64,000 bases of DNA from a virus (IMGVR_UViG_3300031952_002809:57554-121553), one strand, 5' to 3'. Positions 42,805 through 62,212 are shown, counted from the first letter of the stretch. Numbers and translations: made by a program. The notes: generated by a model not told the origin, from the sequence alone.

Positions 42805-44037
42805 TTAAATTATGCTTTCAAACACGTCATCGGTTGTTGCTGGAGAGCCCTCTACGCTGGCAACAACTGCACAACCTGTTATTCTGCTTCTTGGTGGGCA
42901 TACCAGTGCTTTTCTAACCGGTACAGGAGAACCTGATGCATCAAGAAAAGATACCAATGCTTCACCAATCTTAAGATTACCAATTGCTTTCTCAACATCC
43001 AGACTCGATTCATTTCTGAAAGTCTGCGCTACAGTTTTAACAGACTTCTGTTCCTTCGGAGTGAATGCACGTAACGAATGCTGAACACGATTACTGAGCT
43101 GAGCAAGAACTTTATCAGGAATATCCGAAGGGCTTTGAGTAACAAAGATTACACCCACACCTTTTGAACGAATAAGTCTGACCAGTTTCTCAACATTGTC
43201 TACTAAGACTTTGGGAGCGTCATCGAAGAGAAGGTGTGCTTCATCAAAGAAGAATACCATCTTCGGCTTTTCGAGGTCACCACATTCAGGCAGTGCCTTG
43301 TATAATTCTGCAATCAACCAGAGTAAGAATGTAGAGTACACCATTGGATTCTCATACAATTTCCGAGCTTTGAAGATATTGATAACCCCACGACCATCCT
43401 CAGTCTGCATGAAGCGCGTGACATCGAAAGGATTGTCAGAGAACAGAATATCTTTTCCGTCCTGTTCAAGCATCAGCATACTTCTTTGTATTGAAGTGTA
43501 GCTTTGCTTTGAGATTTTTCCATACTTAGATTCGAGAGAATCACTATACTGGATAATTGTATTGATTACCGAAGTCATGTCCTCAATGTTTCTGATATCA
43601 ACAAGATTGCCTTCACTTGAATAGTCACGAGCAATCTTGAACAACTGAGACAGAGATTCATTTTGGACATCGGACAGATTAAGTAATCGACTGAGTAAAA
43701 GAGGGGTGAGTCTATTAATAGAAGTCTTAAGCTCATCTCCTTCTTGACCAAAGACATCCCAACACCGAGTCGGGAATCCTTCAAACGAGAAGTCAGTCAA
43801 GTTCATAGAAGAAATACGTTCTTTGATTGCAGACGTTGCTTCTCCAGGTTGGTCTAATCCATACAAGTCACCTTTGATGTCAGCCATGAATACCGGCACA
43901 CCAATATTGCTGAAATTCTCAGCCATGACTCGTAGAGTTACAGTCTTCCCCGACCCACTGCTACCGGCGATAAGACCATGACGATTGGACATTGCAGGAA
44001 GCAGATGAAGTTCTTTACCATTCTTTGCAATTAACAT
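42805..44037 (-). CDS. DUF853/YjgR-like HerA/FtsK-family ATPase
   Basis: NRHGLIAGSSGSGKTVTL, VPVFMADIKGDL, FFFDEAHLLF, RLIRSKGVG, VTQSP, QHSLRAFTP. Confidence 0.9.
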   Translation of the reverse strand: MLIAKNGKELHLLPAMSNRHGLIAGSSGSGKTVTLRVMAENFSNIGVPVFMADIKGDLYGLDQPGEATSAIKERISSMNLTDFSFEGFPTRCWDVFGQEGDELKTSINRLTPLLLSRLLNLSDVQNESLSQLFKIARDYSSEGNLVDIRNIEDMTSVINTIIQYSDSLESKYGKISKQSYTSIQRSMLMLEQDGKDILFSDNPFDVTRFMQTEDGRGVINIFKARKLYENPMVYSTFLLWLIAELYKALPECGDLEKPKMVFFFDEAHLLFDDAPKVLVDNVEKLVRLIRSKGVGVIFVTQSPSDIPDKVLAQLSNRVQHSLRAFTPKEQKSVKTVAQTFRNESSLDVEKAIGNLKIGEALVSFLDASGSPVPVRKALVCPPRSRITGCAVVASVEGSPATTDDVFESII

Positions 44038-44051
44038 AATGCTAACCTCCA

Positions 44052-44306
44052 TTAACAAAATTTAATCATCAATACTATTGCTATCAATATGATAGCTCCC
44101 ATGATAAGTGCGGGTTTAATACTACTTACGAAAGAACCTACAAAAATAGAACCCTTTTCAGCAGCACCTTCTTTTAAAGATACTTTAAGTTTATTCCATT
44201 GGGGTGTGTTGCTGTCGTGGTCAGTCTCATATCCTTGCTCAAGAATTATTCTTCTATAAGCATCTTGCTGGCCTTGTTCCATTATTACCTTTCTTGATTC
44301 TTTCAT
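44052..44306 (-). CDS. Small protein with C-terminal TM
   Basis: First gene after promoter; RBS TGGAGGT. Confidence 0.6.
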   Translation of the reverse strand: MKESRKVIMEQGQQDAYRRIILEQGYETDHDSNTPQWNKLKVSLKEGAAEKGSIFVGSFVSSIKPALIMGAIILIAIVLMIKFC

Positions 44307-44331
44307 AAGATTACCTCCATAATCTATTTGA

Positions 44332-44360
44332 AGTATACCACATTTCTTGTAGTTTGTCAA
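44332..44360 (-). promoter_or_regulatory. sigma70-type early promoter
   Basis: TTGACA-17-TATACT, TGTG extended -10, upstream AAAAGCTA. Confidence 0.85.
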
Positions 44361-44399
44361 TAGCTTTTTAAAAGAAATTAAAAAAAAGTAAAAAAAGTA

Positions 44400-44924
44400 T
44401 CATATAAGATACTCAAGCATATCTTCTTTCTTATACAGAATCTCTTGCACAGTGTGGAGCAGTGCTATTTTTGAATGATCTTCGCCTATGCAAAGGCCAA
44501 TAATATTATCTAATCCAGAGGTAATCTTTATTAAAAGAGCTTCCCCTTTTAAAGGGGAAGCTCCAAATGAACGAGCAGAAGAATACTTCACTACTGCATA
44601 TGCTGATGCAACATAGGCTTCTCCGTTTTCCTCATTGTTAAGGGAAACAACCGGCATGTATATTTCCAGGATAGCATCTTTAACTACTTTTCCGGTCAGT
44701 AGCGATTCTACTTCAGGTACGATAGAGGTTAGATCATGCTGCCTAACTTTATTAAATTTCTTTGTTGCAATGTAGATACATAAATTTGAATTGGAGGTAT
44801 CACTAATACATATCTCCGTTACTTTTCTTGAAGGGTTGATCAAACATGAGTAGTTGCGTTCCTTCATTGTAGTATACACATTCTTAAATATTTCTCTTCC
44901 TATTTCAGTCATAGTATACCTCAC
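44400..44924 (-). CDS. Hypothetical protein (tail KEDMLEYLI)
   Basis: ORF in early operon. Confidence 0.6.
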   Translation of the reverse strand: MRYTMTEIGREIFKNVYTTMKERNYSCLINPSRKVTEICISDTSNSNLCIYIATKKFNKVRQHDLTSIVPEVESLLTGKVVKDAILEIYMPVVSLNNEENGEAYVASAYAVVKYSSARSFGASPLKGEALLIKITSGLDNIIGLCIGEDHSKIALLHTVQEILYKKEDMLEYLI

Positions 44925-45370
44925 AGTAAATCGGCTACAGCCGATTCCTTTAGTGTTTTAATACAGTCTTGTATATCATTCATTTGATTCTTTATTATCT
45001 CATGTGTGACATGCTCAGTAAACTTTTCTAAGATGCATGCTATGTATACGAGATCATCCAGGTTGATATAGATATTACCATCACCAATAGATTTTCCGAG
45101 TGTCTCCTTAGTAGGAGGAATACTTTTTTCTTTTTCATCATGCACATACAGTATTGTTCCTTCATAGTTCTGACCAGGAGTTGAGAATTGTAGCCTATCA
45201 AACTTTCCTATAAAAAGTTTAGTTCTACCAAACTCTGTGAGTTCTATTGTGTTTGTATAAAGACCTGCTGTCTTACTTAATTGTGTATTTGCTTTGTGGA
45301 TGCATTCAATTAAGTAATCCACTATGCGTAAATATTTGTTTATTCCATCAAGTCTATCCTGCATTGACAT
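44921..45370 (-). CDS. Hypothetical protein (tail KESAVADLL)
   Basis: RBS GGAGG; start revised. Confidence 0.6.
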   Translation of the reverse strand: MSMQDRLDGINKYLRIVDYLIECIHKANTQLSKTAGLYTNTIELTEFGRTKLFIGKFDRLQFSTPGQNYEGTILYVHDEKEKSIPPTKETLGKSIGDGNIYINLDDLVYIACILEKFTEHVTHEIIKNQMNDIQDCIKTLKESAVADLL

Positions 45371-45478
45371 ACTATCCCTCCGTACGAAGTTTTTGTTGTA
45401 TCTCCAAAGCATGCAATAAATCGTGCTCAGTAACGAATCCAAGCTCAAAAAGTATTATACCAAAATGGTTCCCTGTTA

Positions 45479-46123
45479 CTAATTATCCTCCAATTCGGAA
45501 GGATCAATCCCAAGAAGCGCACATGCAAACTCACGAGATCCAGAATCTTCTGGAATGTATTCCTCAGAAAGATATCCATTCTCGAATACATATCTTCCGC
45601 AGTTACTGCCAATATCCTCATCTGCATATTCAACAGTAAACTGAACATCGGTAAATATTTCACTGAGTCTTTTTATAATTGGTTTGGGTGTAGACCATGC
45701 TGTCTCAAAATAAATAAATTCTTCACCCATGTGTTGAGAGTAAGCATTCCATTTAGTTCCCCAATTCTTTATGCGCCATTTGTACCAATGAATATAACCA
45801 TACTTGATATAGTTATTGATGTATTTCTTAGTGAGATCGACTTCTTCTTCTGAGAGATCGAGAAGGACTTCAAAATTTTGTTTAAGCAATCCACACAGTT
45901 CTTCCTTATTTGATTTTACTTTTCTCAATAAGTCTTCGACTGTTGTTTCAGCGCGTGTCCCTGCTGTAATATCAAGTTCCTCTGGTTGTTCTATTATCTT
46001 ATTGAAGTCAATGCAGATTTCAGACCCCTGCTCATCACGGCCACCGTAGACGAATGCTTTGACTTCTTCTATACGTTGAGTACTGCCTGACATACTAAGA
46101 TGGTTTGTTACATGGTTTGGCAT
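45479..46123 (-). CDS. DUF1281/YubB ferredoxin-like-fold protein
   Basis: MPNHVTN..., IDFNKII..P, WYKWRIKNWGTKWNA, FETAWSTP, YADED. Confidence 0.75.
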   Translation of the reverse strand: MPNHVTNHLSMSGSTQRIEEVKAFVYGGRDEQGSEICIDFNKIIEQPEELDITAGTRAETTVEDLLRKVKSNKEELCGLLKQNFEVLLDLSEEEVDLTKKYINNYIKYGYIHWYKWRIKNWGTKWNAYSQHMGEEFIYFETAWSTPKPIIKRLSEIFTDVQFTVEYADEDIGSNCGRYVFENGYLSEEYIPEDSGSREFACALLGIDPSELEDN

Positions 46124-46136
46124 AATAAGTCCTCCT

Positions 46137-46379
46137 TTATATAGTCTCAACTACCAATAGTTCTTTTGCATCGTTGTCCAATTTGAGAATGCTTGCAGCG
46201 ATCTTAAGTCGGATAGTAGTATCAACACATTCCTTATTATTATAAGTACTGCGTTTCACATCATATCCTAGTTTAAGAGGGCACTGTTCACATAGTAAGG
46301 CTGAGTTGTCACACTTACCTTGCAGTTCCACAATTGCTCTGAGGTGTGCATATTCCTGAATGGTTAGATTAACTATCAT
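46137..46379 (-). CDS. Cys4 small protein (paralogue family)
   Basis: GKC..LCEQCPL..C; tail KELLVVETI. Confidence 0.65.
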   Translation of the reverse strand: MIVNLTIQEYAHLRAIVELQGKCDNSALLCEQCPLKLGYDVKRSTYNNKECVDTTIRLKIAASILKLDNDAKELLVVETI

Positions 46380-46621
46380 GCTGTTCCTCCTTTTTGTTTA
46401 AGTTCCTTGCAAGTTGCATTGATAAGCTTCTGTAATTTCCTTCGTAAAGATATATAGATGAGCTTATCGAGAATGCTGAGATCGAGGTCACGCACTCTTG
46501 TTTTATTAATGATGTCTGCTATCTCATTCATATTCTCCATAAGTCTTTCGGTATCGTTGCATCTATTTGATACTACCATATCTAATCTCAGGGTGTGCAG
46601 TTGTTCTCGAAGTGTTTTCAT
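46376..46621 (-). CDS. Hypothetical protein
   Basis: RBS AGGAG. Confidence 0.55.
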   Translation of the reverse strand: MKTLREQLHTLRLDMVVSNRCNDTERLMENMNEIADIINKTRVRDLDLSILDKLIYISLRRKLQKLINATCKELKQKGGTA

Positions 46622-46669
46622 GAGTATCTCCTTGTAGTTATCAACATACGATCCACACTTGTGGATAAG

Positions 46670-47320
46670 TTATATAGTGTCGGCTACGAAATCTTCTTTG
46701 CTCAGATAGACTTTTTCTATCTCTGTACGAGTTATACATCTTCCGTTTTTGTATAAATCATACGCTGTTTTTTTAGAGTTCTTCTTTAAATAGAAAGTAC
46801 TTGTATCTTCTTCCTTTTTTACAGAGCCTACAAAGGATGCAGTAAACACTAATATCCTACCTCGTGCAGTTGATGCATAGTAACGAGACGAGTATGGTTT
46901 CTCAGTGGTTTCTTCTTTCATTTTAATACTTGAAAAGTTAATTGCTGTTGGGAGTGTCCATTCCTTTTCAGTCCATGGAATCCACAGATGTGAGGTAAGT
47001 TTTTCTTGTATAGAATCTTCTGTAATAAAATAGAAATTTTCGTTTAATGTACAATTGATAACTTTCCAGATAATATCTAGTTTAGTTTTGATATTATCGA
47101 GAGAAGAATATTCTAATTTTATATTTTCTCGTTTCTCATTAATGAATGCTTTGTGTGCTCCCCAGGTTTGTTGAACAAAGGAATAGTTATGAATGTATTC
47201 AAGCTCAAGCTTTTGAGCTTGATTATTAGCTTGTTTCAATTGCATATTTAAGCGAGCAGTACGTGTCCACACTTCTATGCAGTCTTCTAGTATAGTAACC
47301 TTACTACGCATTGTGATCAT
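46670..47320 (-). CDS. Hypothetical protein (tail KEDFVADTI)
   Basis: ORF in early operon. Confidence 0.6.
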   Translation of the reverse strand: MITMRSKVTILEDCIEVWTRTARLNMQLKQANNQAQKLELEYIHNYSFVQQTWGAHKAFINEKRENIKLEYSSLDNIKTKLDIIWKVINCTLNENFYFITEDSIQEKLTSHLWIPWTEKEWTLPTAINFSSIKMKEETTEKPYSSRYYASTARGRILVFTASFVGSVKKEEDTSTFYLKKNSKKTAYDLYKNGRCITRTEIEKVYLSKEDFVADTI

Positions 47321-47888: not shown

Positions 47889-48185
47889 TTAAATAAGATA
47901 CTCTACTATGAGTTGTTTCGCTCTGTCTTTTCCCCATTCATTTACAAGGTATTGCATGCAGAGTTCCACTTTCTTTTTTTGTGTAGTTATGTTCTTCTTT
48001 TCAAATTCAGTTGCACTTTCATTGTGTCTTCGTATTATTCGGATTGAGCAATCGAAGTCAGGGAAGTTTGACAGGGGACATTTCTTACATAGATCGTGCA
48101 TGGTAAAATTAAAGCATGTGCTTTCGTTTGAGTTAGCTATCAGTTCTATAGCCATCTTGTCTGTGTAGTTCAGTTTCTTTCTCAT
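47889..48185 (-). CDS. Cys4 paralogue
   Basis: C..LCKKCPL..C; YLVNEWGKDRAKQLIVEYLI. Confidence 0.7.
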   Translation of the reverse strand: MRKKLNYTDKMAIELIANSNESTCFNFTMHDLCKKCPLSNFPDFDCSIRIIRRHNESATEFEKKNITTQKKKVELCMQYLVNEWGKDRAKQLIVEYLI

Positions 48186-48394
48186 AGCAATTCCTCCGTG
48201 AGTCGTTCTTTAGTTTCCTTTTCACCGAGTACAGATATTAGCCATTGAACAGTGAGTTCTACTTTATTATTCTTTGGTATCTTTATTGCTTTAGCACAGA
48301 TTAGTTTATGCAGTGAGCATTCTAAACAGTTTGTTTCTTTATGGCATGAACCATTGTTTTTAATGATGGCGATTGCAGACTGTATTTTATTCAT
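48182..48394 (-). CDS. Cys4 paralogue
   Basis: IIKNNGSC..NCLECSL..C; WLISVLGEKETKERLTEELL. Confidence 0.7.
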   Translation of the reverse strand: MNKIQSAIAIIKNNGSCHKETNCLECSLHKLICAKAIKIPKNNKVELTVQWLISVLGEKETKERLTEELL

Positions 48395-48455: not shown

Positions 48456-48668
48456 TTATACAAGCATTTCGACGAGCAGTGCTTGAGTTTCTTCTTTACC
48501 GACTGCATTTATGAGATAGTGCATAGCCTGAGCTTTTATTACTTCGGGAATGCTTGTACATACATTGGGGAGAGGGCATGTTTCTTTTATACAATGTTTG
48601 TAAGGACGATTACAATGCCCGTTTTTCTTTATGATGGTAAGACATGTATCGATATGTGATGCTTTCAT
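48456..48668 (-). CDS. Cys4 paralogue
   Basis: IIKKNGHC..C..CPL..C; YLINAVGKEETQALLVEMLV. Confidence 0.7.
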   Translation of the reverse strand: MKASHIDTCLTIIKKNGHCNRPYKHCIKETCPLPNVCTSIPEVIKAQAMHYLINAVGKEETQALLVEMLV

Positions 48669-48898
48669 ATGAGTACCTCCATAATCATTTCTTTTGTTTT
48701 ACTCTCTCCGTATTCATCTACCAAGTACTTAATAAGGAGAGGCTTTCTACTGTGCGGTGTTAATCTCCCTGTGCACACGGTACAACAATTTCCATTTAGA
48801 GGACAGAAGTGACAATCAACGTCAGCACAGCTACCTTCACTTTCTATTATATACAGTGCTGTTGTGGTGAGTATTCGTTTCGTTCTATATGTTTTCAT
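48665..48898 (-). CDS. Cys4 paralogue
   Basis: IIESEGSCADVDCHFCPLNGNC; YLVDEYGESKTKEMIMEVLI. Confidence 0.7.
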   Translation of the reverse strand: MKTYRTKRILTTTALYIIESEGSCADVDCHFCPLNGNCCTVCTGRLTPHSRKPLLIKYLVDEYGESKTKEMIMEVLI

Positions 48899-49146
48899 AT
48901 CAGTACCTCTATAAGTAGTTCTTTCGTTTCCTGTTCTCCATAGACTGCTATGAGATACTGGGCAAGGAGTGTTATTTTTGTGGAAGGTTTTTGGTTATAC
49001 AATATTTCTGCACAGAAATGTCTGTTGATGAAACAATCACTACAGTTTATATGTCCGCAATCGCCATTGTTTTTAATAGTGGTGATGGCATTCATTACCA
49101 TGTTATCTATTGGTGTGTGTTGAGTAAATACTTTAGCGTAGCTCAT
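48895..49146 (-). CDS. Cys4 paralogue
   Basis: IKNNGDCGHINCSDCFI..C; YLIAVYGEQETKELLIEVLI. Confidence 0.7.
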   Translation of the reverse strand: MSYAKVFTQHTPIDNMVMNAITTIKNNGDCGHINCSDCFINRHFCAEILYNQKPSTKITLLAQYLIAVYGEQETKELLIEVLI

Positions 49147-49625
49147 ATAAGAGCCTCCACTATTATTTCTTTAGCTTCCCTTTCACCGTATGTATTTATC
49201 AACCATTGAATAGCCATATCCTTATTGACATGTTCACATATACTGAGTAACCCCTTACCAAACTTATTCATATACCGCCTTTTATTATTACGTATTACTG
49301 TATGAATAGGACAATCAACACAATGTATACTTGAACAATCACCGTTATGACGGATAATAGACAGGACAATGCTCTTTTCAAAAGTACTACTATTCATTAC
49401 CTTATTGACATGCACAGTACTAGACTTATTAATTCCACTCACGTTGTTGCCCATAGAATTATTAATTCCAGACACAGTACTGATAGAATTATTAATTCCA
49501 CTCACGGTAGAATTATTAATTCCACTCACGTTACTGATAGAATTATTAATTCCACTCACGTTGTTGCCATTTTGGCTAATATTTGATCGAGCGAGAATTG
49601 TGTTTTTTTTATTTTTATTAACCAT
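49143..49625 (-). CDS. Cys4 paralogue with N-terminal VSGINNS repeats
   Basis: IIRHNGDCSSIHCVDCPI..C; WLINTYGEREAKEIIVEALI; start revised by RBS. Confidence 0.7.
   Translation of the reverse strand: MVNKNKKNTILARSNISQNGNNVSGINNSISNVSGINNSTVSGINNSISTVSGINNSMGNNVSGINKSSTVHVNKVMNSSTFEKSIVLSIIRHNGDCSSIHCVDCPIHTVIRNNKRRYMNKFGKGLLSICEHVNKDMAIQWLINTYGEREAKEIIVEALI
49423..49560. repeat. Five copies of GAATTATTAATTCCA(CTCACG)
   Basis: Copies at 49423 (variant), 49456, 49486, 49510, 49540; spacing 33/30/24/30. Confidence 0.9.
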
Positions 49626-49645
49626 AAGTTTCTCCATATGGATGT

Positions 49646-51153: not shown

Positions 51154-51387
51154 TTAAATGTTATACTCAACAATGAGTTCCTTGATGATAGGTACCAATT
51201 CTTCTTTATACACTTCAAAGAGTATCCCATCTGCAGTTCCTTCGTCGTGCTTAAAATCTTGATACCACTTCCATCCAGCCTTTTGAAGTTTTTCAGTCAA
51301 TCTACGAGCAACAACAATATGCATGTCTCTTGGTGCAGGGGACAATACAAAAGAAAATATAGGGATTGACCCATGCATTTCAGTCAC
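51154..51387 (-). CDS. Hypothetical protein (tail KELIVEYNI)
   Basis: GTGA-coupled to upstream ORF. Confidence 0.55.
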   Translation of the reverse strand: MTEMHGSIPIFSFVLSPAPRDMHIVVARRLTEKLQKAGWKWYQDFKHDEGTADGILFEVYKEELVPIIKELIVEYNI

Positions 51388-52618: not shown

Positions 52619-52981
52619 TTACACAAGCTCCTCGAAGAGCGCATCTCTTGATATCTCTTTGCCACGTTCAAAGGGAAACACTGTTTCACCAAGAACGTAG
52701 AACCATTCTCCCCTGTTCTTCCGTACAACCACAGGAGAATACCGATTGATACGTTCGCTTGACAGCTTTGTCCACCAGCCGCCGTTATCAAGTATCCAGC
52801 GGTTACCAGGAAGCACTGACACGATGTCAGTGTTCCATAAGCGAACATGATACGACTCACCGTCGAAGTACAGGTATGTATTCTTGGCCAGCTTCTTTGC
52901 TTTGCAGCCATCAACCACTGCCCTGCCCTTCTTAATCATCTCAGAACACTTTTCATACGTTAAACAATTCTCGTTAAACAT
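52619..52981 (-). CDS. Hypothetical phage protein (tail RDALFEELV)
   Basis: KLAKNTYL..LWNTDIV..LDNGGW; RBS GGAGGTAACTT. Confidence 0.7.
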   Translation of the reverse strand: MFNENCLTYEKCSEMIKKGRAVVDGCKAKKLAKNTYLYFDGESYHVRLWNTDIVSVLPGNRWILDNGGWWTKLSSERINRYSPVVVRKNRGEWFYVLGETVFPFERGKEISRDALFEELV

Positions 52982-54551: not shown

Positions 54552-54875
54552 TCAAATTCTTTCTTCTACTATCTTACTCTGTATAAACTGCTGACCTTCC
54601 TCAGTCAGTCTATACAAAACTCGATACTTGTAGTAGTTGTAGTTTCTTTTACCACAACCAAGCTTGCGAACATTTCTCCAATACTGTGAACATATTGCTG
54701 GGAACGTTTCAGTTCCTTGTGTTCCACTGAATGTTACCTTGAGAAGATCACCAGTAGTAACATTGTGGGTATTTGAATAATCATATTCGGCCACAACGTA
54801 TTGCTTCTGGTTAAGCTCTTCAAGAAAGTCTCCGTCCCATTCAGGAAACGTTGCGATTCTTTTAACTCGTAGCAT
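54552..54875 (-). CDS. Hypothetical protein (tail QSKIVEERI)
   Basis: RBS TGGAGGTAAC. Confidence 0.65.
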   Translation of the reverse strand: MLRVKRIATFPEWDGDFLEELNQKQYVVAEYDYSNTHNVTTGDLLKVTFSGTQGTETFPAICSQYWRNVRKLGCGKRNYNYYKYRVLYRLTEEGQQFIQSKIVEERI

Positions 54876-55800: not shown

Positions 55801-56013
55801 CTAAATCAGCTCTGCCATTGCATCAGCTTTGTGCGTCGGGTCATCTTGCAAAGCCAATGTTGCAAAGATTGTCAGACACTTGCCACATATAATGTAGATG
55901 TGCCTGTTCTTTACAAGGTGCAGATACTTTGTCCCACGCGGGACAGGCACTCCACAGTGGTCACATGCTCGACCAATTGTTTGTGCTGTCACCAATTCCG
56001 TATAACCTTTCAT
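55801..56013 (-). CDS. Zinc-finger protein (tail KADAMAELI)
   Basis: CDHC..VPRGTKY..ICGKC. Confidence 0.7.
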   Translation of the reverse strand: MKGYTELVTAQTIGRACDHCGVPVPRGTKYLHLVKNRHIYIICGKCLTIFATLALQDDPTHKADAMAELI

Positions 56014-56100: not shown

Positions 56101-56134
56101 AAAAAAAAGTAAAGCCCCCGTTTCCGAGGGCTTT
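56101..56134 (-). terminator. Rho-independent terminator
   Basis: AAAGCCCTCG-GAAA-CGGGGGCTTT followed by U tract. Confidence 0.75.
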
Positions 56135-56400
56135 TAAAGGAAGAGATCGAACACTGTCCCACGTTGTTGTGGTGTTTTGGCCAGTTCCTCAAAATCTGGT
56201 TTGTCTAAGGAAAATACTCCGAAGGCAGCCCATCCAGAAATATTGTTTCGTATTATTTCTGGAAGCTTCACTACAACTTCTCTCACTGCTGTTTTCCATC
56301 GAGTGCTTTGGCAATGTTGTATGAATGTTTCTTCATTACCTAACGAGTTTGTATAAAAGATATACACCATATAATTGTATACATCTACATACTTTTTCAT
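56134..56400 (-). CDS. Hypothetical protein
   Basis: ATGA-coupled. Confidence 0.55.
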   Translation of the reverse strand: MKKYVDVYNYMVYIFYTNSLGNEETFIQHCQSTRWKTAVREVVVKLPEIIRNNISGWAAFGVFSLDKPDFEELAKTPQQRGTVFDLFL

Positions 56401-56777
56401 ACTAGTTCCTCCAGCAGTATCTCTTTGAGTTGTGGATCACTTAAAGGAATGCCCCATGCTGCATGGATGTCTATACTAGCAGGAATTGTGTTATACTTTT
56501 CACGCCACAGCTTAATAAGTTCTTCTGCTCGCCTGATTTGTACAACTACCTGCTTGAGTACCGAAGTTCCCTCTCCTTCATGTGTTGTATTTCCGCATAA
56601 AGGGCAGACATACGCATCAAAGTTTTCCTCACTGAACTCATCACTGAACTCCTCACTTACGTACACCCCATACTTATCCAGATTTGTACTGGCGTACAAG
56701 TAGTACCTCTTGTCAGGTTTCATCAGCAGTATCTTGCAATCGGGACAGATGTACAGATACATTGTTTTTTCTTTCAT
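56397..56777 (-). CDS. Zinc-ribbon protein (tail KEILLEELV)
   Basis: ICPDC..VCPLCG. Confidence 0.65.
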   Translation of the reverse strand: MKEKTMYLYICPDCKILLMKPDKRYYLYASTNLDKYGVYVSEEFSDEFSEENFDAYVCPLCGNTTHEGEGTSVLKQVVVQIRRAEELIKLWREKYNTIPASIDIHAAWGIPLSDPQLKEILLEELV

Positions 56778-56867: not shown

Positions 56868-57575
56868 CTACACAAGCTCTTCAACCAGCATACTAATAAC
56901 TTCTTTGTCATCTTTTGTTACAGGGCGTAAGTTCTTCACTATCCACTGACAATGAAATCTACCCCTCTTGAAACTCTTACCATACATATAATGCTGACCT
57001 CCTCTAACCGCACTTCTTCCAGATGTTCTTCTTTTTATCATGAGCCCACGATCAGGAGAACAGTTAAGAAGATTTGTATCATACTCAAATGTGTAATACT
57101 TCCCCTTCGCATCTTTAATGAAATACAAAGAGGTACGATCGTCCTCTTTTATAACTTTTAGTTCCTTCACCATAATCTGTGCGGGAAGGACATACACATC
57201 TTTTCTATCAGAGATAGGTTGCCATTGTTCCCGTGCAATATCCTCCTCTGAAAGATTTACCCGATACACCTCAGAGAGTAACTTTCCCTTTGAGTTGAGT
57301 GCTGTTACTGTGTACGCTACTTCAAGATCACAGTACATAGAAGTAGCACACGACCGGATGTCTGTTACCTGCCAGAGTTGCCCTTTGCTACTGAATAGTT
57401 GACCCATCTTCCATGTAGCCATATCATTAACCAGCGTGAGCATTTCTTCCCGCTTCGCCCGTATTAATTCAATGGCTTGTGCTTCAGCATCGTTAGCTCG
57501 TGCTTCAGCATCTTTAATTCTGTCGTCATACGTATCCAGTATCCGCTTAAGCTCTTCTTTGTGTTCCCTTTTCAT
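56868..57575 (-). CDS. Hypothetical protein (tail ISMLVEELV)
   Basis: First gene after promoter. Confidence 0.65.
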   Translation of the reverse strand: MKREHKEELKRILDTYDDRIKDAEARANDAEAQAIELIRAKREEMLTLVNDMATWKMGQLFSSKGQLWQVTDIRSCATSMYCDLEVAYTVTALNSKGKLLSEVYRVNLSEEDIAREQWQPISDRKDVYVLPAQIMVKELKVIKEDDRTSLYFIKDAKGKYYTFEYDTNLLNCSPDRGLMIKRRTSGRSAVRGGQHYMYGKSFKRGRFHCQWIVKNLRPVTKDDKEVISMLVEELV

Positions 57576-57628: not shown

Positions 57629-57767
57629 TAGCTTTTGAAATATTATTTGAAATACTACTGGAGTGAATAATACAGCAGTAGGACACGCACAAAAGTGCGA
57701 CTATAGGTCCGCCAAAATCCGCCAAGATCCCTGGATCTGGGGCGCACAAAAGTGCGCCCCATGCCTG

Positions 57768-58292
57768 CTAGATGAGCTGTTCAACCTTGTCTTCTTTCGT
57801 GCCAGCATACTGAATCTTTACAGTAGTCCCTGTTGGAATGTCGTGGCATGATACTCGTGCTGTGACTGTGAGTGTCTCACAGGTAAGTACTTCGGCATAG
57901 AAGTCACTGCCGTGCATGGCAAAGGTTTCACGTATGAAACTTTGTGCCGTGCCGTTGTAGACAAACCGTCTACTTCCTCCATGCCCCTGCCATCCAATCT
58001 GACCAACCATGTAAAGCATAGGGTCACCTTCGGCGAACCCTGCCTTGTCCAGTAGCTCTTGCAAGAAGCTAACCGTGCTATCCCAATAATTCTGATACAT
58101 TCCAGTGTCGCCACTGAAGTACTGCATGATTAACTCTTCTTGCTGTTCTTTGCTTAGCTCATACTCTTCATCCTCACCAATACCTTTCTCTTCCTTGAAT
58201 TCCTTGATGAATTCGGGATAGCTATCCTCCACAAAATCAAAGTCTACAAGGTCAAGAATAGAAACGTTTGTGTCGATCCTGAGCAAGATCAT
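57768..58292 (-). CDS. Hypothetical acidic protein (tail KEDKVEQLI)
   Basis: Start revised to MILLRID by RBS; GW.GHGG, CHDIPTG. Confidence 0.65.
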   Translation of the reverse strand: MILLRIDTNVSILDLVDFDFVEDSYPEFIKEFKEEKGIGEDEEYELSKEQQEELIMQYFSGDTGMYQNYWDSTVSFLQELLDKAGFAEGDPMLYMVGQIGWQGHGGSRRFVYNGTAQSFIRETFAMHGSDFYAEVLTCETLTVTARVSCHDIPTGTTVKIQYAGTKEDKVEQLI

Positions 58293-58473
58293 ATATGTTA
58301 CCTCCAATAATTGTATTCTGTTTCCAAACCCCTTATTTGAAAAGAACCCCGAAGGAGTTACCCTTCGGGGTTTTAGTTGGAGTTTGGAAGTAACTTTAAA
58401 ACAATGCTTACATTCGGTGGCTGTAAGCGGCCTCGTGAAGCAAGACAAGTGATTGTCTTGCCCCATGAAACCG

Positions 58474-59085
58474 TTACGATGCTTGTTCAAACAGAGTGTC
58501 ATTGATAAGGAGTGCTGTGCCTATCTCCTTACCTTCAGGAAGGACAGTAGCAACAAATGTGAAAGCTTCTGTCCAATCATCCATGTCCCCATCAGAGCTG
58601 ATTGAAACATAAGGGAAGTAATGTTTGTACAGGATGAGACATGCTTGCACCATGAGATCATATGGCTTGCGAGCAGTCTTGCAAAATTGAAAGTACATGA
58701 CTTCTTCTTTTCTATGGTCACGTTGTTTCGGTACTTTTCGTGTCAGTCCAAAAGTTTCATGCCCGAGATCATTAAGACTCTCATCATGTGACTTTGCATC
58801 CAGCCATTCGATGTGCTTGCATCCTTTGTCACAAGAGATGTATCGTTTGATCCTCTTCAATCCATTGGAGCCATTAAACAAGACACGACTCATTGTGAAT
58901 TTAGGTTTTTCATACTTGAAACAACCCGATAAAAACAATGGTTCGTTGCCAGCGTAATCACCAGAGCTGTGTGAATGTTCCGGCATGTTCTTGTACAATG
59001 CTTTACAGTCGTCAATGAAACGTCTCCATGTTTCCATATCATGGTCAACCTTCACTGGTCTGTAATAATATTGTGTGTATCCCAT
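58474..59085 (-). CDS. Conserved-looking phage hypothetical protein
   Basis: MGYTQY..HETF..FCKTARKPYDL.V.ACL..SSDG..DW. Confidence 0.7.
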   Translation of the reverse strand: MGYTQYYYRPVKVDHDMETWRRFIDDCKALYKNMPEHSHSSGDYAGNEPLFLSGCFKYEKPKFTMSRVLFNGSNGLKRIKRYISCDKGCKHIEWLDAKSHDESLNDLGHETFGLTRKVPKQRDHRKEEVMYFQFCKTARKPYDLMVQACLILYKHYFPYVSISSDGDMDDWTEAFTFVATVLPEGKEIGTALLINDTLFEQAS

Positions 59086-59107
59086 AAGTTACCTCCACAT
59101 ACTTTGT

Positions 59108-59136
59108 ATTATAGCACACTTTCATGTGCTTGTCAA
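59108..59136 (-). promoter_or_regulatory. sigma70-type early promoter
   Basis: TTGACA-17-TATAAT, TGTG, upstream AAAAGCTA. Confidence 0.85.
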
Positions 59137-59198
59137 TAGCTTTTTAAAAGTTATTGTTTAAAGTATCAGAAGTGTCCCTCCGAAGAGGGGCGTATCTG

Positions 59199-60572
59199 CT
59201 AATCTAAACAGACAACCTTCCGAGACCATGCAGGCATGTTCTCTTTCGGGCAGTGACCACCAGACAGGACAAAGATTGTCTCGATGCCTGGCCTCTTGTC
59301 AGGGAACGCGCTGTATCCATCAGTGAAGGACACCAGAAGGTTTGTGTTCCACTTCCTTCTGTTCTTCTCGATGTGTTCATACAGTGGGATGTGACTCGTG
59401 CCACCTCCACCATGAATCTGTAACTGCTTGATCTTATTGACATGCCCATTGTAAATCGGGATGTCATCATGCACGTCAGTATCATGAGTGAGGACACGAA
59501 ACTCCACGTTCGAGAAAGACTTTGAGATACCAATCATTTCTGATATGTATGCTTCAAGGTCTTTCTGACTGATCGAACCCGACGTATCGATGGAGCATAT
59601 TACTCGAATCGATTCGCCATAAATACTCGGCATGTAAATGTCATGGCACGAATACTTTTTGTTCGGTCGGCGATACGTGTAGTCATACGGCAGGAAGGAT
59701 GCAATGGTCTTGCGGAGAAGTGTTCTCCAGTTGACCTTCGGTGCATGAAGTTCCTCAAAGTATCTGTCGAACCCTGCTGGACTCTTGCCAATCATCTTGG
59801 CATGGTTGAAAGCTTCCGCAACAACCTTGTCCCAATCAACATTCGGCACACCTTCTCCTTCCTTGTCACCTGCACCACCTTGCCCTTCTCCTTCTTCCTT
59901 GTCACCATCCTTGCCTTTTCCCTCGCCCTCTTCTTCACCAACACCATCCTTGATGTGCTGATCAAACGATCCAGCTTTGCCACTAGACTCATACTCATCA
60001 CCCTGATCGCCTCCACCTTGCCCCGACTGGCCTTGTCCCTGACCTCCCTGTCCCTTCACCTTCTTTGCACCATTCTTTTCCAGACCGGCCAGAAGTTCTT
60101 CGTAAATCTCCTCGGCACTTTTGATGTCCAGATTATCAATGGTAACATTGAAGACTACGACACTATTTCCTGAAGGGATGATCCCTTCCGGCGGAAGTTC
60201 TAAACCATTCTGCACCAACAAATAATTGTTGGCGATATCAATGGCTACATTCCACAATGAACCGCCGTTGACCAGAATGTTTCTATGTCCCTGCCGTTGA
60301 AAGTGTCGGAGCGCGGGATGCTGCACCTCATGGCATAGAACGCCCATGAGTTGCGCCTCAGGAAGTTTGTCCACAAAGGTTTTATTGTAGTAACAATTAC
60401 CTTTGATGTCCACGCCCATTGTTTGCACTTGAGGAGTATTAACTTCTTTAAACCTCAAGTGTTCTACGATGTACGCAAAGAATGGAAACGATTTGTTGAG
60501 CTTGATTTTCGCCTTTGACAATCTGTCTTCCGTTGTCAGTTCGGCGAAGAAGATGTTTGTTTTGTCGATCAT
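59199..60572 (-). CDS. DUF2201-type metallopeptidase + vWA domain protein
   Basis: TMGVD, CHEVQHPALRH (HExxH), WNVAIDIANN, WRTLL, IDTSGSI MIDAS, GGGGTS, FTDGY. Confidence 0.88.
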   Translation of the reverse strand: MIDKTNIFFAELTTEDRLSKAKIKLNKSFPFFAYIVEHLRFKEVNTPQVQTMGVDIKGNCYYNKTFVDKLPEAQLMGVLCHEVQHPALRHFQRQGHRNILVNGGSLWNVAIDIANNYLLVQNGLELPPEGIIPSGNSVVVFNVTIDNLDIKSAEEIYEELLAGLEKNGAKKVKGQGGQGQGQSGQGGGDQGDEYESSGKAGSFDQHIKDGVGEEEGEGKGKDGDKEEGEGQGGAGDKEGEGVPNVDWDKVVAEAFNHAKMIGKSPAGFDRYFEELHAPKVNWRTLLRKTIASFLPYDYTYRRPNKKYSCHDIYMPSIYGESIRVICSIDTSGSISQKDLEAYISEMIGISKSFSNVEFRVLTHDTDVHDDIPIYNGHVNKIKQLQIHGGGGTSHIPLYEHIEKNRRKWNTNLLVSFTDGYSAFPDKRPGIETIFVLSGGHCPKENMPAWSRKVVCLD

Positions 60573-60645
60573 AAGTTACCTCCATAACATTTTAATCGGA
60601 CATAGGAGTACACAAGTTTGATGTCCTTGTGTACTCTATCTTCGA

Positions 60646-61776
60646 TCAAATCAGAAGCGGGAAAATACTGTCAGCAAGCTTGGTAAACTTGTCAGGAGCA
60701 TTCTTCTTTACCTTTGTAAAGAAGTCTTTGTCCATGTGCTTCGCTTGGTTCAGAAGCATGCAGGTATGTTCCTTATTGAATACCAAAGACAGGTCTAACA
60801 GTCTGACTGCATTTTCAGCAGTCGATTTTTCTGAGTAGTGACCGACGAAGGCACTAATCAGGGAGTAAAGCTGGTCAACTTGTGTTGGCTTTTCAAACTT
60901 ACCGCTTGTAAATATCTTGGTGATATCATACTTCTTTGAAAGCTTGATCCAAGCTACCATTTCCTGCGCAATCCCAGTGCCCACGCCCATGCCTATGTAA
61001 CGATACAGCAAATCTTCTGCTGTATCAGGTATCCCCTTGATAAGAGTGGATACTTTGTCCCACATTCTTGGCGTGGCAATTGTCGGTTCGCACACATCCT
61101 TGGTCGGATCGTATGTAAACAAGTGCTTCTTTTGATACATGAGATAGTTGACAATCCTATGGTCAACACCAGAAGGGATTGCATAATCATTCGCCCATCC
61201 CCGTATCTTCTCACCACTCACCTCGATGTCATCGACTGGTGGAACAAGAAGTTCTGCATGTAAGAACCTGTTGTTCAAAGGCATCGCCATGTCGAACGTA
61301 TGACCACGATCATCGTCCCTGTTTCCTGCACCGAGTATCATTACTCCGTCAGGAACACGATAGAAACCAAGTCGCCGATCTTCAATCAATTGGTACGCAT
61401 TCGATTGAAGCATCGGAGGAGCAAGGTTTATTTCATCCAGAAGGACGACACCTTGTCCTTTGGTAGGCAGAAGACCGACTGGAAGATACACAGTCTGTGT
61501 GCGGTCAGCGTTCGGAAAAGGCAGTCCCTTTATTTCTGCTGGTTCGTATTGATGCAATGGCAACACTAAGAACATGAATTTCTTTTCGTTGTTTACATCA
61601 GCGAAGTCCTGAGAAAATTCGAGACCGAGTTCCTTGGCTTTACGCATCGCAAACCGTCTTACCGCTTCGGTTTTTCCGATACCAAATGTCCCTGTCAACA
61701 TGACTGCCAATTTAGTCGGCAAAGAATACATCCTGTCAAGAACCGATTGAAACTGTGCGTGATACAAACTAATCAT
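60646..61776 (-). CDS. MoxR-like AAA+ ATPase
   Basis: GTFGIGKT, EIKGLP, LLDEIN, AYQLI, GAGN, LNNRF, ATPRMW. Confidence 0.88.
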   Translation of the reverse strand: MISLYHAQFQSVLDRMYSLPTKLAVMLTGTFGIGKTEAVRRFAMRKAKELGLEFSQDFADVNNEKKFMFLVLPLHQYEPAEIKGLPFPNADRTQTVYLPVGLLPTKGQGVVLLDEINLAPPMLQSNAYQLIEDRRLGFYRVPDGVMILGAGNRDDDRGHTFDMAMPLNNRFLHAELLVPPVDDIEVSGEKIRGWANDYAIPSGVDHRIVNYLMYQKKHLFTYDPTKDVCEPTIATPRMWDKVSTLIKGIPDTAEDLLYRYIGMGVGTGIAQEMVAWIKLSKKYDITKIFTSGKFEKPTQVDQLYSLISAFVGHYSEKSTAENAVRLLDLSLVFNKEHTCMLLNQAKHMDKDFFTKVKKNAPDKFTKLADSIFPLLI

Positions 61777-61799
61777 AAGTTACCTCCAATAACTTTTGT

Positions 61800-61828
61800 A
61801 GTATAGCACATATTATTGTGCTTGTCAA
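61800..61828 (-). promoter_or_regulatory. sigma70-type early promoter
   Basis: TTGACA-17-TATACT, TGTG, upstream AAAAGGTA. Confidence 0.85.
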
Positions 61829-61900
61829 TACCTTTTGAAATATTTTTCAATATTTTTTAAAAGTATTCTTCTCCCCTCCGTGAAGGGGAGTAGAAGTCTT

Positions 61901-62212
61901 TCAAAAGCTTGCCATCATGATTTGTTCTTTGCAGTATTGTAGTCCTGCTTCGGTCAAACGATAGTGTTTGTATTGTGGTACCGATACATAATGATTAACC
62001 TTTACTCTTTTCAATTCCTTTGTTGAAACTGTGTAGAAAGTTTCATCCTTCTCATTGACCTCCCACAATACATTGTGACCTCCATTCGTTGTGACTGTGT
62101 ACCATTCTTTGACAAGTTTCCTTTCACCTTGAAAATCATTTTCAAGGTCAGAAAGAATGTCAATGTTAAGACCACACATATTCTTTACTTCGATATACTT
62201 TTTCTTTCTCAT
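61901..62212 (-). CDS. Hypothetical protein (tail KEQIMMASF)
   Basis: Duplicated RBS upstream. Confidence 0.6.
   Translation of the reverse strand: MRKKKYIEVKNMCGLNIDILSDLENDFQGERKLVKEWYTVTTNGGHNVLWEVNEKDETFYTVSTKELKRVKVNHYVSVPQYKHYRLTEAGLQYCKEQIMMASF

What the first reader, a model, noticed from the sequence alone, without database searches (positions are those of the whole stretch)
42805..62212. Shared 9-residue C-terminal tag on about 20 early proteins: candidate targeting/docking system
Seen, last 9 aa: KEDMLEYLI (44400), KESAVADLL (44921), KELLVVETI (46137), KEDFVADTI (46670), KQLIVEYLI (47889), KERLTEELL (48182), QALLVEMLV (48456), KEMIMEVLI (48665), KELLIEVLI (48895), KEIIVEALI (49143), KELIVEYNI (51154), RDALFEELV (52619), QSKIVEERI (54552), KADAMAELI (55801), KEILLEELV (56397), ISMLVEELV (56868), KEDKVEQLI (57768); weaker KEQIMMASF (61901), TDDVFESII (42805), RGTVFDLFL (56134). 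K is at -9 in 14 of these, position -5 is nearly always hydrophobic, an acidic residue sits at -4 or -3, and the terminus is aliphatic. Seven carriers are paralogues but the rest look unrelated, and no + strand late protein clearly ends this way. Many carriers end ATT/ATC/GTG + TAA/TAG with no coupled gene, so RBS overlap does not explain it. Known precedents for shared C-terminal docking peptides: T4 clamp-binding SLDFL motif, SSB tails, protease degrons. Inference: an amphipathic helix read by one partner (host or phage hub, AAA+ chaperone/protease, or packaging/export machinery).
Basis: partly seen in the sequence, partly recalled or inferred. Interest (0 to 1): 0.9.

Follow-up and report, generated by a model that had tools for sequence, protein, structure and literature searches.

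The report
Shared C-terminal helix on phage early proteins
Eighteen small early proteins of this uncultured 121-kb phage, from about eleven unrelated families, end in the same ten-residue helix, which selection keeps at the protein level and which probably works as a common handle for a partner that is still unknown.

Summary
A scoring matrix built only from the seven Cys-rich paralogues puts 11 of 132 other C-termini in the top 0.31% of 36,318 internal 9-mers. All 11 are minus-strand genes at 44.4-61.9 kb. The two weakest tails (42805, 56134) look like chance.

The tail is kept as a peptide, not as DNA. Non-paralogue tails share codons at chance level. Orthologue tails of uncoupled carriers show 17 synonymous against 5 non-synonymous codon changes. 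RBS overlap is a partial cause. In 5 of 7 stop/start-coupled carriers the last five codons are the phage's own ribosome-binding region read in frame. Only 1 of 11 uncoupled carriers has it.

The trait is wider than this phage. Two very distant phage contigs (G001, G002) share little with it beyond RNR, a MoxR ATPase and a metallopeptidase-VWA protein. They carry 24 and 26 genes with their own versions of the tail, always at the exact C-terminus, clustered around that gene pair.

The most likely reading is a shared docking handle. No reader was identified, and a structural-helix explanation is not excluded. The scan has noted similar shared tails in other phages. My two literature searches found no description.

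The parts
44400..44924 (-). carrier, 174 aa, tail KEDMLEYLI; no gene coupled downstream
   Evidence: top 0.017% of internal 9-mers. The L004 orthologue keeps the tail at 7/9 against 67% identity in the body.
44921..45448 (-). carrier, 175 aa, tail KESAVADLL; 4-nt overlap with the next gene
   Evidence: The L003 orthologue has tail 7/9 against 28% body identity.
46137..46379 (-). carrier, 80 aa, Cys-rich paralogue, tail KELLVVETI
   Evidence: A1; relatives P0018-P0021 keep the tail.
46670..47320 (-). carrier, 216 aa, tail KEDFVADTI; uncoupled
   Evidence: L004 orthologue: tail 7/9 against 51% body; 4 synonymous and 2 non-synonymous codon changes.
47889..48185 (-). carrier, 98 aa, Cys-rich paralogue, tail KQLIVEYLI; uncoupled
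48182..48394 (-). carrier, 70 aa, Cys-rich paralogue, tail KERLTEELL; ATGA overlap, GGAGG inside the tail
48456..48668 (-). carrier, 70 aa, Cys-rich paralogue, tail QALLVEMLV; uncoupled
48665..48898 (-). carrier, 77 aa, Cys-rich paralogue, tail KEMIMEVLI. Its last codons ATG GAG GTA CTC ATA TGA are the early translation-initiation region read in frame.
48895..49146 (-). carrier, 83 aa, Cys-rich paralogue, tail KELLIEVLI; ATGA overlap
   Evidence: AF2 model has mean pLDDT 72.8; the tail is helix 71-82, and residues 71-80 average 87.
49143..49637 (-). carrier, 164 aa, Asn/Ser-repeat N-terminus plus Cys-rich paralogue domain, tail KEIIVEALI; ATGA overlap
51154..51387 (-). carrier, 77 aa, tail KELIVEYNI; the next gene has its own SD after the stop
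   Evidence: Best non-paralogue score. L004 orthologue: tail 9/9 against 60% body, 4 synonymous and 0 non-synonymous changes.
52619..52981 (-). carrier, 120 aa, tail RDALFEELV; uncoupled
   Evidence: top 0.31%. L004 orthologue: 7 of 10 tail codons changed, all synonymous. Only close relatives were found.
54552..54875 (-). carrier, 107 aa, tail QSKIVEERI. The L004 orthologue reads KEKLVEQKI. Distant paralogue of 61901.
55801..56013 (-). carrier, 70 aa, CxxC...CxxC zinc-ribbon-like, tail KADAMAELI. Similar architecture to tailed proteins L013:7663-7896 and L011:20463-20708.
   Evidence: about 20% identity; orthology not proven.
56397..56777 (-). carrier, 126 aa, tail KEILLEELV; ATGA overlap, GGAGG in the tail
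   Evidence: L001 holds a 25%-identical relative ending KEILFESLL.
56868..57575 (-). carrier, 235 aa, tail ISMLVEELV (the K-E pair sits three residues further upstream); uncoupled
57768..58502 (-). carrier, tail KEDKVEQLI. The true start is probably at 58292 (174 aa). The conserved alpha/beta core ends before the tail.
   Evidence: Homologues align from residue 72. 0 of 10 distant homologues has this tail. AF2 mean pLDDT 86.7; the last four residues average 58.
61901..62212 (-). weak carrier, 103 aa, tail KEQIMMASF
   Evidence: Top 0.30% by the paralogue-only PSSM; related to 54552.
42805..44058 (-). HerA-like ATPase ending TDDVFESII: not a supported carrier
   Evidence: Not among the 30 best C-termini. 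Pfam HerA_C, E = 1.8e-155. The L004 orthologue lacks the 27-aa extension.
56134..56400 (-). 88-aa protein ending RGTVFDLFL: not a supported carrier
   Evidence: Not among the 30 best C-termini.
59199..60572 (-). metallopeptidase (HExxH) plus VWA (MIDAS DxSxS..TD) protein, DUF2201_N/DUF2201. Candidate reader, inferred only.
   Evidence: Pfam; catalytic and MIDAS residues invariant in 43 sequences (A6); embedded in the tailed-gene arrays of G001 and G002.
60646..61776 (-). MoxR-type AAA+ ATPase, partner of the VWA protein
   Evidence: Weak Pfam AAA_5 hit. 31-32% identical to the ATPases next to DUF2201 in G001 and G002.

Best explanation
The tail is a modular, N-capped, two-and-a-half-turn amphipathic helix with consensus [ST]-K-E-x-h-h-E-x-L-[ILV]-COOH. 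It is attached to at least 18 early proteins from about eleven sequence-unrelated groups.

Shown:
- It is enriched only at exact C-termini.
- It is kept by purifying selection on the peptide.
- It lies outside the conserved core of the one carrier family that has distant homologues.
- It occurs in an early gene block with near-consensus sigma-70 promoters.
- The same kind of tail, in lineage-specific versions, marks 24-26 genes in two very distant phage contigs, clustered around a MoxR ATPase and a metallopeptidase-VWA pair.
- In stop/start-coupled genes the last five codons also encode the next gene's Shine-Dalgarno region.

Inferred:
- The tail is a common handle by which one partner binds many fast-evolving early proteins.
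- The hydrophobic face (-6, -5, -2, -1) and the conserved charges (K-9, E-8, E-4) form the contact.
- The only phage-encoded candidate conserved across the tailed phages is the MoxR/VWA-peptidase machine. A tail Glu or the terminal carboxylate could complete the VWA MIDAS metal site, as VWA ligands do. A host protein is equally possible.
For: Enrichment.

Peptide-level rather than DNA-level conservation:
- Non-paralogue tail pairs share codons 65/154 against 64.5 expected, p = 0.46.
- Uncoupled orthologue tails show 17 synonymous against 5 non-synonymous codon changes. In 52619, 7 of 10 codons changed with no residue change.
- Tail identity exceeds body identity in diverged orthologues: 7/9 against 28%, 6/9 against 26%, 9/9 against 60%.

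Modularity:
- hhalign of the Cys-rich family against the 57768 family gives probability 0.3%.
- 0 of 10 distant 57768 homologues has the tail.
- The tail is the least confident part of that model.

Charged positions are conserved: K-9 in 14/18, E-8 in 12/18, E-4 in 13/18, while -7 and -3 vary.

Clade-wide trait with dialects:
- L013 21/61 and L011 19/59 genes match, against about 0.5 expected.
- Whole records: G001 24/232 and G002 26/254 genes, on one strand, in one 30-50 kb block.
- MVExL is at the exact C-terminus in 12 of 12 occurrences; F[LM]ExL in 9 of 11.
- Two orthologous pairs between L011 and L013 each follow their own genome's dialect.

Link to MoxR/VWA:
- By phmmer and BLASTP, RNR, MoxR and DUF2201 are the only strong matches of G000 in both G001 and G002. 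One collagen-like tail-fibre repeat also matches both, weakly.
- The five DUF2201 loci closest to the window's (34-38% identity) all fall in the top 7 of 80 for tail-like endings.

Early block: five 12/12 and four 11/12 TTGACA-17-TATAAT sites on the minus strand.

Precedent: VWA domains are proposed to capture a peptide that MoxR then remodels, and zincin peptidases act on small fast-diverging proteins with conserved C-terminal peptides (PMC7159879, passages read). A VWA MIDAS site takes its sixth ligand from the target protein (PMC13036017, passages read).
Against: - No reader was identified.
- 76 of the 80 DUF2201-bearing viral loci show no recurrent C-terminal motif within 10 kb. The pair works without tails elsewhere, and the association may be shared ancestry only.
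- In the Cys-rich paralogue model the tail helix is a confident element (pLDDT about 87) paired with the preceding helix. It may be part of the fold.
- Most carriers in G001 and G002 look by eye like one SH3-like family with a C-terminal helix (this reading was not tested).
- Carriers are coupled to the next gene more often than non-carriers in all three genomes.
- L011 tails do show DNA-level codon sharing, 335 against 249 expected.
- The one-residue difference in the Glu position between the window (-4) and G001/G002 (-3) matches, at least for G002, a difference in SD-to-start spacing. RNA-level constraints have therefore shaped the motif.
- An earlier follow-up on another phage (e1-6077303) found a similar 'tail' to be the buried core of one fold.
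Confidence: 0.45

Rival explanations
1. Structural helix frozen on a translation-signal template. Small genes in tightly coupled arrays had to end in codons that carry the next gene's SD and start, giving x-E-[VAE]-L-I. Each protein built its last helix on those residues. The helix is now kept because each fold needs it, so no common reader exists. Many carriers would be very old paralogues.
For: - The tail of coupled carriers equals the early translation-initiation region ATGGAGGTA.C..ATG read in frame; GAGG is present in 5 of 7 coupled carriers.
- Carriers are enriched for coupling: 14/21 against 10/35, 12/19 against 8/36, 8/18 against 2/23.
- The position of Glu follows SD spacing.
- The tail helix is confident in the paralogue model.
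- Seven carriers here are paralogues, and most carriers in G001 and G002 look like one SH3-like family.
Against: - K-9, E-8 and the -6 position lie upstream of the initiation region and are still conserved across unrelated bodies.
- G001 tails show no codon-level sharing (400 against 385 expected, p = 0.29), yet V-4 and E-3 are each kept in 17 of 21 carriers.
- 10 (L013), 8 (L011) and 2 (window) coupled genes lack the tail, so coupling does not force it.
- In the 57768 family the tail is an add-on to the fold.
- Genome-specific dialects on different bodies are not expected if each fold sets its own constraints.
Confidence: 0.3
2. Degron. The tail marks early proteins for timed removal by a host or phage protease that recognises a non-polar C-terminus with a free carboxylate. 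This is a special case of a common reader.
For: - The tail is strictly at the C-terminus.
- The last residue is aliphatic in 17 of 18 carriers.
- Carriers are early genes.
- A zinc peptidase fused to a VWA domain lies inside the array.
- C-terminal degrons of the ssrA and MuA kind are known (recalled from memory, not read here).
Against: Known C-terminal degrons need only 2-5 residues, whereas ten residues with conserved charges are kept here. There are no stability data.
Confidence: 0.1
3. Pure by-product of overlapping ribosome-binding sites (SD plus ATGA) with no role for the peptide.
For: DNA-level sharing in L011.
Against: - 11 of 18 carriers are uncoupled, and 10 of those 11 have no GAGG.
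- In orthologues their tails change synonymously, GAG to GAA, while the residues stay.
- The final residue uses ATT, ATC or GTG when uncoupled.
Confidence: 0.05
4. Conserved recombination junction for cassette shuffling at gene ends, spread as DNA.
For: There is a slight codon-sharing excess once the paralogues are included: 247 against 206 expected, p = 0.012.
Against: Non-paralogue pairs show no excess (p = 0.46). The direct-repeat tool was not run.
Confidence: 0.03

Closest known systems
Peptide-processing modules attached to bacterial vWA-MoxR ternary conflict systems (Kaur et al. 2020, PMC7159879; passages read)
   Same: Small, rapidly diverging proteins whose C-terminal peptide is the conserved part, encoded next to a zincin-like metallopeptidase, a vWA protein and a MoxR ATPase. 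The authors propose that the vWA domain captures a peptide and MoxR remodels the bound protein.
   Different: - Those peptides are of the FxSxx, RxD, poly-acidic or FtsH-associated kind, not K-E-x-h-h-E-x-L-I.
- Here there are 18-26 carriers per genome.
- Here the peptidase is fused to the vWA domain.
- Here the element is a phage.
- No radical-SAM partner turned up among the roughly 50 phage proteins scanned.
- Cleavage is not shown.
Phage MoxR AAA+ / metallopeptidase-vWA pair (Iyer et al. 2021, PMC7824862, passage read; Bas54 MoxR in PMC13716836, passage read)
   Same: The same two-gene module (Pfam DUF2201_N + DUF2201 with a MoxR-type ATPase) inside a large phage.
   Different: The 2021 paper predicts a role in virion assembly. 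The 2026 paper reports only that the Bas54 MoxR gene is needed to overcome a predicted defence system. Neither passage mentions tailed small proteins.
Virion-packaging signal of T4 internal proteins, and encapsulin cargo-loading peptides
   Same: A short terminal peptide shared by unrelated cargo proteins and read by one assembly. PMC13716836 mentions the N-terminal signal that directs packaging of T4 IPI-III (passage read). The encapsulin peptides are recalled from memory.
   Different: The T4 signal is N-terminal and is cleaved off. Nothing here ties the carriers to the capsid, and they sit behind host-type early promoters.
C-terminal clamp-binding tails, SSB acidic tails and ssrA/MuA-type degrons
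   Same: A few C-terminal residues with a free carboxylate act as a docking site for one hub protein.
   Different: The sequence classes differ. In those systems a handful of functionally linked proteins carry the tail, not a tenth of the genome's genes.

Membership tests
Shared C-terminal docking tag (short linear motif read by one partner) | The motif is enriched at the exact C-terminus of proteins that are otherwise unrelated. | tested here: met
Shared C-terminal docking tag (short linear motif read by one partner) | The motif is kept by selection on the peptide, independently of the protein body. | tested here: met
   the tail lies outside the conserved core in the 57768 family
Shared C-terminal docking tag (short linear motif read by one partner) | An identified partner binds the tail. 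| not testable with these tools
   No reader was found. Binding assays or a systematic co-folding screen are needed.
vWA-MoxR-linked peptide-processing system (Kaur et al. 2020) | Small fast-diverging proteins with a conserved C-terminal peptide lie next to a zincin peptidase, a vWA domain and a MoxR ATPase. | tested here: met
   HExxH and MIDAS are invariant. The arrays surround the pair in G000, G001 and G002.
vWA-MoxR-linked peptide-processing system (Kaur et al. 2020) | The C-terminal peptide is of the FxSxx, RxD, poly-acidic or FtsH-associated type. | tested here: not met
   The tail consensus is K-E-x-h-h-E-x-L-[ILV].
vWA-MoxR-linked peptide-processing system (Kaur et al. 2020) | The peptidase cleaves off the C-terminal peptide. 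| not testable with these tools
   This needs biochemistry.
Translational-coupling signal embedded in coding sequence | Stop/start overlap, with an SD at the right distance inside the tail. | tested here: inconclusive
   Met for 5 carriers (GAGG plus ATGA). Absent in 10 of 11 uncoupled carriers.
One paralogous protein family with a shared fold | Sequence or profile similarity extends beyond the tail. | tested here: not met
   This holds only within the 7 Cys-rich paralogues and the 54552/61901 pair. A3 against A4 gives probability 0.3%. Remote homology among the other ORFans cannot be excluded.

The most novel reading that the evidence does not exclude
A plug-in effector platform. A phage MoxR ATPase and its VWA-zinc-peptidase partner would recognise one C-terminal helix, with a tail Glu or the terminal carboxylate completing the MIDAS metal site. 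Through it they would load, remodel, activate or clip dozens of fast-evolving small early proteins. Any new host-takeover or anti-defence protein would then become functional simply by acquiring the ten-residue tail. The module (machine plus tailed array) would be conserved across phages that share almost nothing else.
Probability: 0.2. Interest if true: 0.85.

Novelty: new variant of a known kind. Interest (0 to 1): 0.62.

Why it matters
Most early genes of large phages are small ORFans with no handle for study. A shared, selected tail on a tenth of the genes would mean that these proteins work through one common partner. A single pull-down could then place dozens of unknown proteins in one pathway. 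The tail would also serve as a sequence signature for finding such effectors in metagenomes.

The finding gives a concrete, testable substrate candidate for the widespread but uncharacterised phage MoxR / VWA-peptidase pair.

It also shows how a peptide motif and a ribosome-binding region can be encoded in the same bases. This has to be controlled for whenever shared C-termini are reported.

Tried and rejected
Searches that found no relatives:
- GenBank phages have no relatives by megablast or tblastn.
- IMG/VR scans with carrier 57768, the MoxR gene, alignment A2 and alignment A5 confirmed nothing.
- Pfam and PHROGs give nothing significant for 10 window carriers or for 10 tailed proteins of L011 and L013.
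- Carrier 52619 has only close relatives in the 5.8-billion-protein set.

Structure searches that led nowhere:
- Neither AF2 model has a significant match in the solved structures. Foldseek gave no hit at E <= 0.001. The best VIA-align Z was 4.5.
- The ESM Atlas gave only sub-threshold leads for carrier 56868.

Candidate readers:
- HerA-like ATPase: no homologue in G001-G004 (those records are incomplete), and the L004 orthologue lacks even the weak tail. I dropped it as a candidate.
- Co-folding of the DUF2201 protein (A6) with carrier 48895 (A3) returned 'no answer' with score 0.00. This is not evidence either way.

Literature: searches for a description of shared C-terminal tails on phage early proteins found none. 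Both were full-text keyword searches of the open library only. Supplements were closed and not consulted, so annotation tables there might mention such endings.

Other limits:
- A membrane-targeting helix was considered and rejected on reasoning alone, because the tail is net acidic.
- I could not obtain model coordinates, so whether the tail is buried was not measured.
- The count of carriers called 'coupled' is 7 by the strict 4-nt overlap and 8. The larger count includes 46137, whose overlap depends on a doubtful TTG start of the next gene.

Full report
**What the window is.** The window is bases 57554-121553 of a single 121,553-bp contig held as a virus record.
- The plus strand of the window carries tail-fibre, structural and terminase genes.
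- The minus strand from about 42 to 64 kb is a block of mostly small genes.
- In 44-64 kb the promoter scan finds five perfect and four 11/12 matches to TTGACA-17-TATAAT, all on the minus strand. The total number of promoter-like sites is not above the shuffled expectation (59 against 49.4).
- I therefore accept 'early region' as the likely reading. No expression data were examined.
- Larger proteins in the block are a HerA-like ATPase, a DUF1281_C protein, a GP88-like protein, a DUF2201 metallopeptidase-VWA protein, a MoxR-type ATPase and an ArdC-like protein.

**The observation.**
- A simple regex for the motif hits 14 of 37,051 positions in 138 greedy-called proteins of the whole genome, and 10 of the 14 are exact C-termini.
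- To avoid circularity I built a scoring matrix from the seven Cys-rich paralogues alone and scored everything else.
- Eleven of the 132 other C-termini fall in the top 0.31% of 36,318 internal 9-mers, and seven in the top 0.04%. All eleven are minus-strand genes between 44400 and 61901.
- No plus-strand protein comes close.
- The tails at 42805 and 56134 are not distinguishable from chance.
- Position counts over the 18 carriers:
  - K-9 in 14, E-8 in 12, and E-4 in 13.
  - Leu or Ile at -6 in 13.
  - A hydrophobic residue at -5 in 17.
  - Leu at -2 in 13.
  - Ile, Val or Leu at -1 in 17.
  - Positions -7 and -3 are variable.
- This is the pattern of an amphipathic helix with one variable face.

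**Are the carriers related?**
- Seven form a Cys-rich family (A1). Its relatives in metagenomes all keep the tail.
- With tails removed, BLASTP links no other carriers, except 54552 with 61901 at a weak level.
- None of the 10 carriers scanned has a significant Pfam or PHROG match.
- The Cys-rich family and the 57768 family have no profile similarity (hhalign probability 0.3%).
- Their models differ: a small helical protein against an alpha/beta protein.
- I count about eleven sequence-unrelated groups. Remote homology among ORFans cannot be excluded.

**Peptide or DNA?**
- Among non-paralogue tails, positions with the same residue use the same codon 65 times in 154, against 64.5 expected from regional codon usage (p = 0.46).
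- Metagenome relatives of the phage (L001-L004) let me compare orthologues.
- Tail identity is at least as high as body identity, and far higher in the most diverged pairs (7/9 against 28%, 6/9 against 26%, 9/9 against 60%).
- In the tails of uncoupled carriers there are 17 synonymous against 5 non-synonymous codon changes.
- In 52619, seven of ten codons changed and none altered a residue.
- The tail is therefore under purifying selection as a peptide.

**The ribosome-binding-site issue.** That is only partly right.
- Early genes preceded by a spacer have a very uniform initiation region, ATGGAGGTAACTTATG. GGAGGT is present in 12 of 25 such genes.
- Seven carriers overlap the next gene by ATGA or GTGA.
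- In five of the seven the tail DNA, for example ATG GAG GTA CTC ATA TGA, is that initiation region read in frame. This accounts for Glu at -4 (GAG), a G-initial codon at -3 and a final NNA codon.
- Only one of eleven uncoupled carriers has GAGG.
- Carriers are coupled more often than non-carriers in the window (8/18 against 2/23) and in two related contigs (14/21 against 10/35; 12/19 against 8/36).
- So RNA-level constraints helped shape the last residues.
- They do not explain K-9, E-8 or the -6 position.
- They also do not explain the uncoupled carriers, whose tails drift at synonymous sites (GAG to GAA, ATA to ATT, ATC or GTG) while the residues stay.

**Is the tail part of conserved folds?**
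- A full HMMER search with carrier 57768 found 19 proteins at E <= 0.001.
- I aligned 11 of the 19: one near-orthologue and 10 distant homologues.
- The conserved core ends at ...VSCHDIPTG plus one strand.
- After it, the ten distant homologues have either nothing, a Cys-rich extension, or other extensions. Two have a short TRKEAE-type helix. None has this tail.
- In the AF2 model (mean pLDDT 86.7) the tail is a helix, and the last four residues average only 58.
- For the Cys-rich paralogue the picture differs. The tail is helix 71-82 after a Gly turn, with pLDDT about 87 over residues 71-80. There it may be part of the fold.
- Neither model has a significant match in the solved structures.

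**Beyond this phage.**
- The DUF2201 protein has thousands of relatives.
- An alignment of 43 of them keeps the HExxH and MIDAS residues invariant.
- Scanning IMG/VR with that alignment gave 482 confirmed loci, of which the best 80 were fetched.
- The window's matrix flags only two C-termini among their 2,101 genes, both in L013.
- Reading L013 and L011 showed why: each has its own version of the tail. L013 has ...[ST]-x-[DE]-E-h-M-V-E-x-L and L011 has ...E-h-F-[LM]-E-x-L, on about twenty small genes per locus.
- A broader regex is enriched only in L013 (21/61), L011 (19/59), the window's genome (15/139) and L014 (5/53), each against about 0.5 expected.
- A motif-free position-by-residue test picks out L011, L013 and G000, the same three strongest.
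- With a looser regex, all five loci whose DUF2201 is closest to the window's (34-38% identity, against 31% or less for the rest) fall in the top 7 of 80. That regex was designed after seeing the data.
- In the whole records, 24 of 232 genes (G001, 144.5 kb) and 26 of 254 genes (G002, 155 kb) carry the tail.
  - All but one of these carriers are on one strand.
  - They lie almost entirely in one 30-50 kb block that contains the MoxR and DUF2201 genes.
- MVExL occurs 12 times in G001, always at the exact C-terminus. F[LM]ExL occurs 11 times in G002, 9 of them terminal.
- These contigs are very distant from the window's phage.
  - By BLASTP and phmmer, the only strong matches in both are ribonucleotide reductase, MoxR and DUF2201.
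  - One tail-fibre repeat also matches both, weakly, and the terminase matches G001 only.
- Most carriers in G001 and G002 start like small SH3-type barrels (my reading, not tested). Others are zinc-ribbon or helical proteins.
- The dominant carrier family therefore differs between phages while the tail type is shared.
- L013 tails show no codon-level sharing (p = 0.29). L011 tails do (335 against 249), in keeping with an xTG GAG NNN TTA TGA initiation region.

**How it most likely works.**
- The data fit a modular handle: a short helix that can be placed on different bodies, must be at the free C-terminus, keeps specific charged residues, and changes in concert within a lineage.
- That is what a motif read by one partner looks like, and I rate this reading at 0.45.
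- The partner is unknown.
- If it is phage-encoded and conserved, the MoxR / VWA-peptidase pair is the only candidate visible in all tailed genomes.
- Published work supports such a mechanism in principle.
  - VWA domains are thought to capture a peptide through the MIDAS site, with the target supplying the sixth metal ligand, and MoxR then remodels the bound protein (PMC7159879; PMC13036017).
  - Bacterial vWA-MoxR systems are linked to zincin peptidases acting on small fast-diverging proteins with conserved C-terminal peptides (PMC7159879).
- Against this candidate, 76 of the 80 DUF2201 loci have no tail array nearby. The association could be ancestry alone, so I give this specific reader about 0.2.
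- The main rival, at 0.3, is that the helix is a structural element built on the translation-signal template and kept separately in each fold.

**Relation to what is known.**
- The scan has noted shared C-terminal tails on early proteins of other phages with quite different motifs. Those are unchecked AI notes, and I used them as leads only.
- Iyer et al. 2021 describe the phage MoxR / peptidase-vWA pair and predict a virion-assembly role (PMC7824862, passage).
- A 2026 transposon study reports that the MoxR gene of phage Bas54 is needed to overcome a predicted defence system (PMC13716836, passage).
- Neither passage mentions tailed proteins.
- My two keyword searches found no description of such tails.

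Noticed in passing
window 44000-63900, minus strand (e.g. 59136-59108, 57628-57600, 51579-51551, 49674-49646, 47848-47820): Five perfect and four 11/12 matches to TTGACA-17-TATAAT, most with an extended -10 TG, all on the minus strand. This is a dense set of host-type promoters in the small-gene block.
   Followed up: partly
upstream of about 10-12 minus-strand genes between 52 and 64 kb: A very uniform translation-initiation region, (T)ATGGAGGTAAC(T/G)TATG. GGAGGT lies within 20 nt of the start in 12 of 25 spaced early genes.
   Followed up: partly
window 42805-44058 (-): The HerA-like ATPase has a 27-residue C-terminal extension that its 72%-identical orthologue in L004 (12480-13652) lacks.
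   Followed up: no
window 57768-58502 (-): The longest ORF (244 aa) probably over-extends the gene. Homologues align only from residue 72, which points to a start at 58292.
   Followed up: partly
G000:C1:40181-40612 (+), outside the window (L009:2181-2612): A 143-aa protein has an internal near-perfect tail-like stretch (YAGREDLIEYLI) at residues 54-65, followed by an SH3-like-looking segment. It is one of only two strong internal matches in the genome. The other is the first helix of the ArdC-like domain at 62297-63262.
   Followed up: no
window 51689-52567 (-): A 292-aa protein starts with a lipoprotein-like signal (MKKLLFLLVVLTWVAC...) in the middle of the early block. This is my reading of the sequence only.
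   Followed up: no
window 24755-28855 (+): The terminase-like ORF is 1,366 aa long and also matches HNH-endonuclease PHROGs at residues about 1012-1113. This suggests an inserted or fused endonuclease element.
   Followed up: no
window 49143-49637 (-) and relatives P0006, P0007, P0010, P0022, P0023: The N-terminal half is a variable array of (V)SGINNS-type repeats whose copy number differs between close relatives. The C-terminal Cys-rich domain and the tail stay constant.
   Followed up: no
L017 (IMG/VR locus from a 236-kb contig): Five of 45 genes end in F-[IV]-x-x-[LI]-like residues, against 0.6 expected with a loose regex. This may be another dialect or chance.
   Followed up: no
G000:C1:151-1080 (-), outside the window (L007): A cation-efflux (CDF) transporter gene with a zinc-transporter dimerisation domain is encoded in the phage genome.
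   Followed up: no
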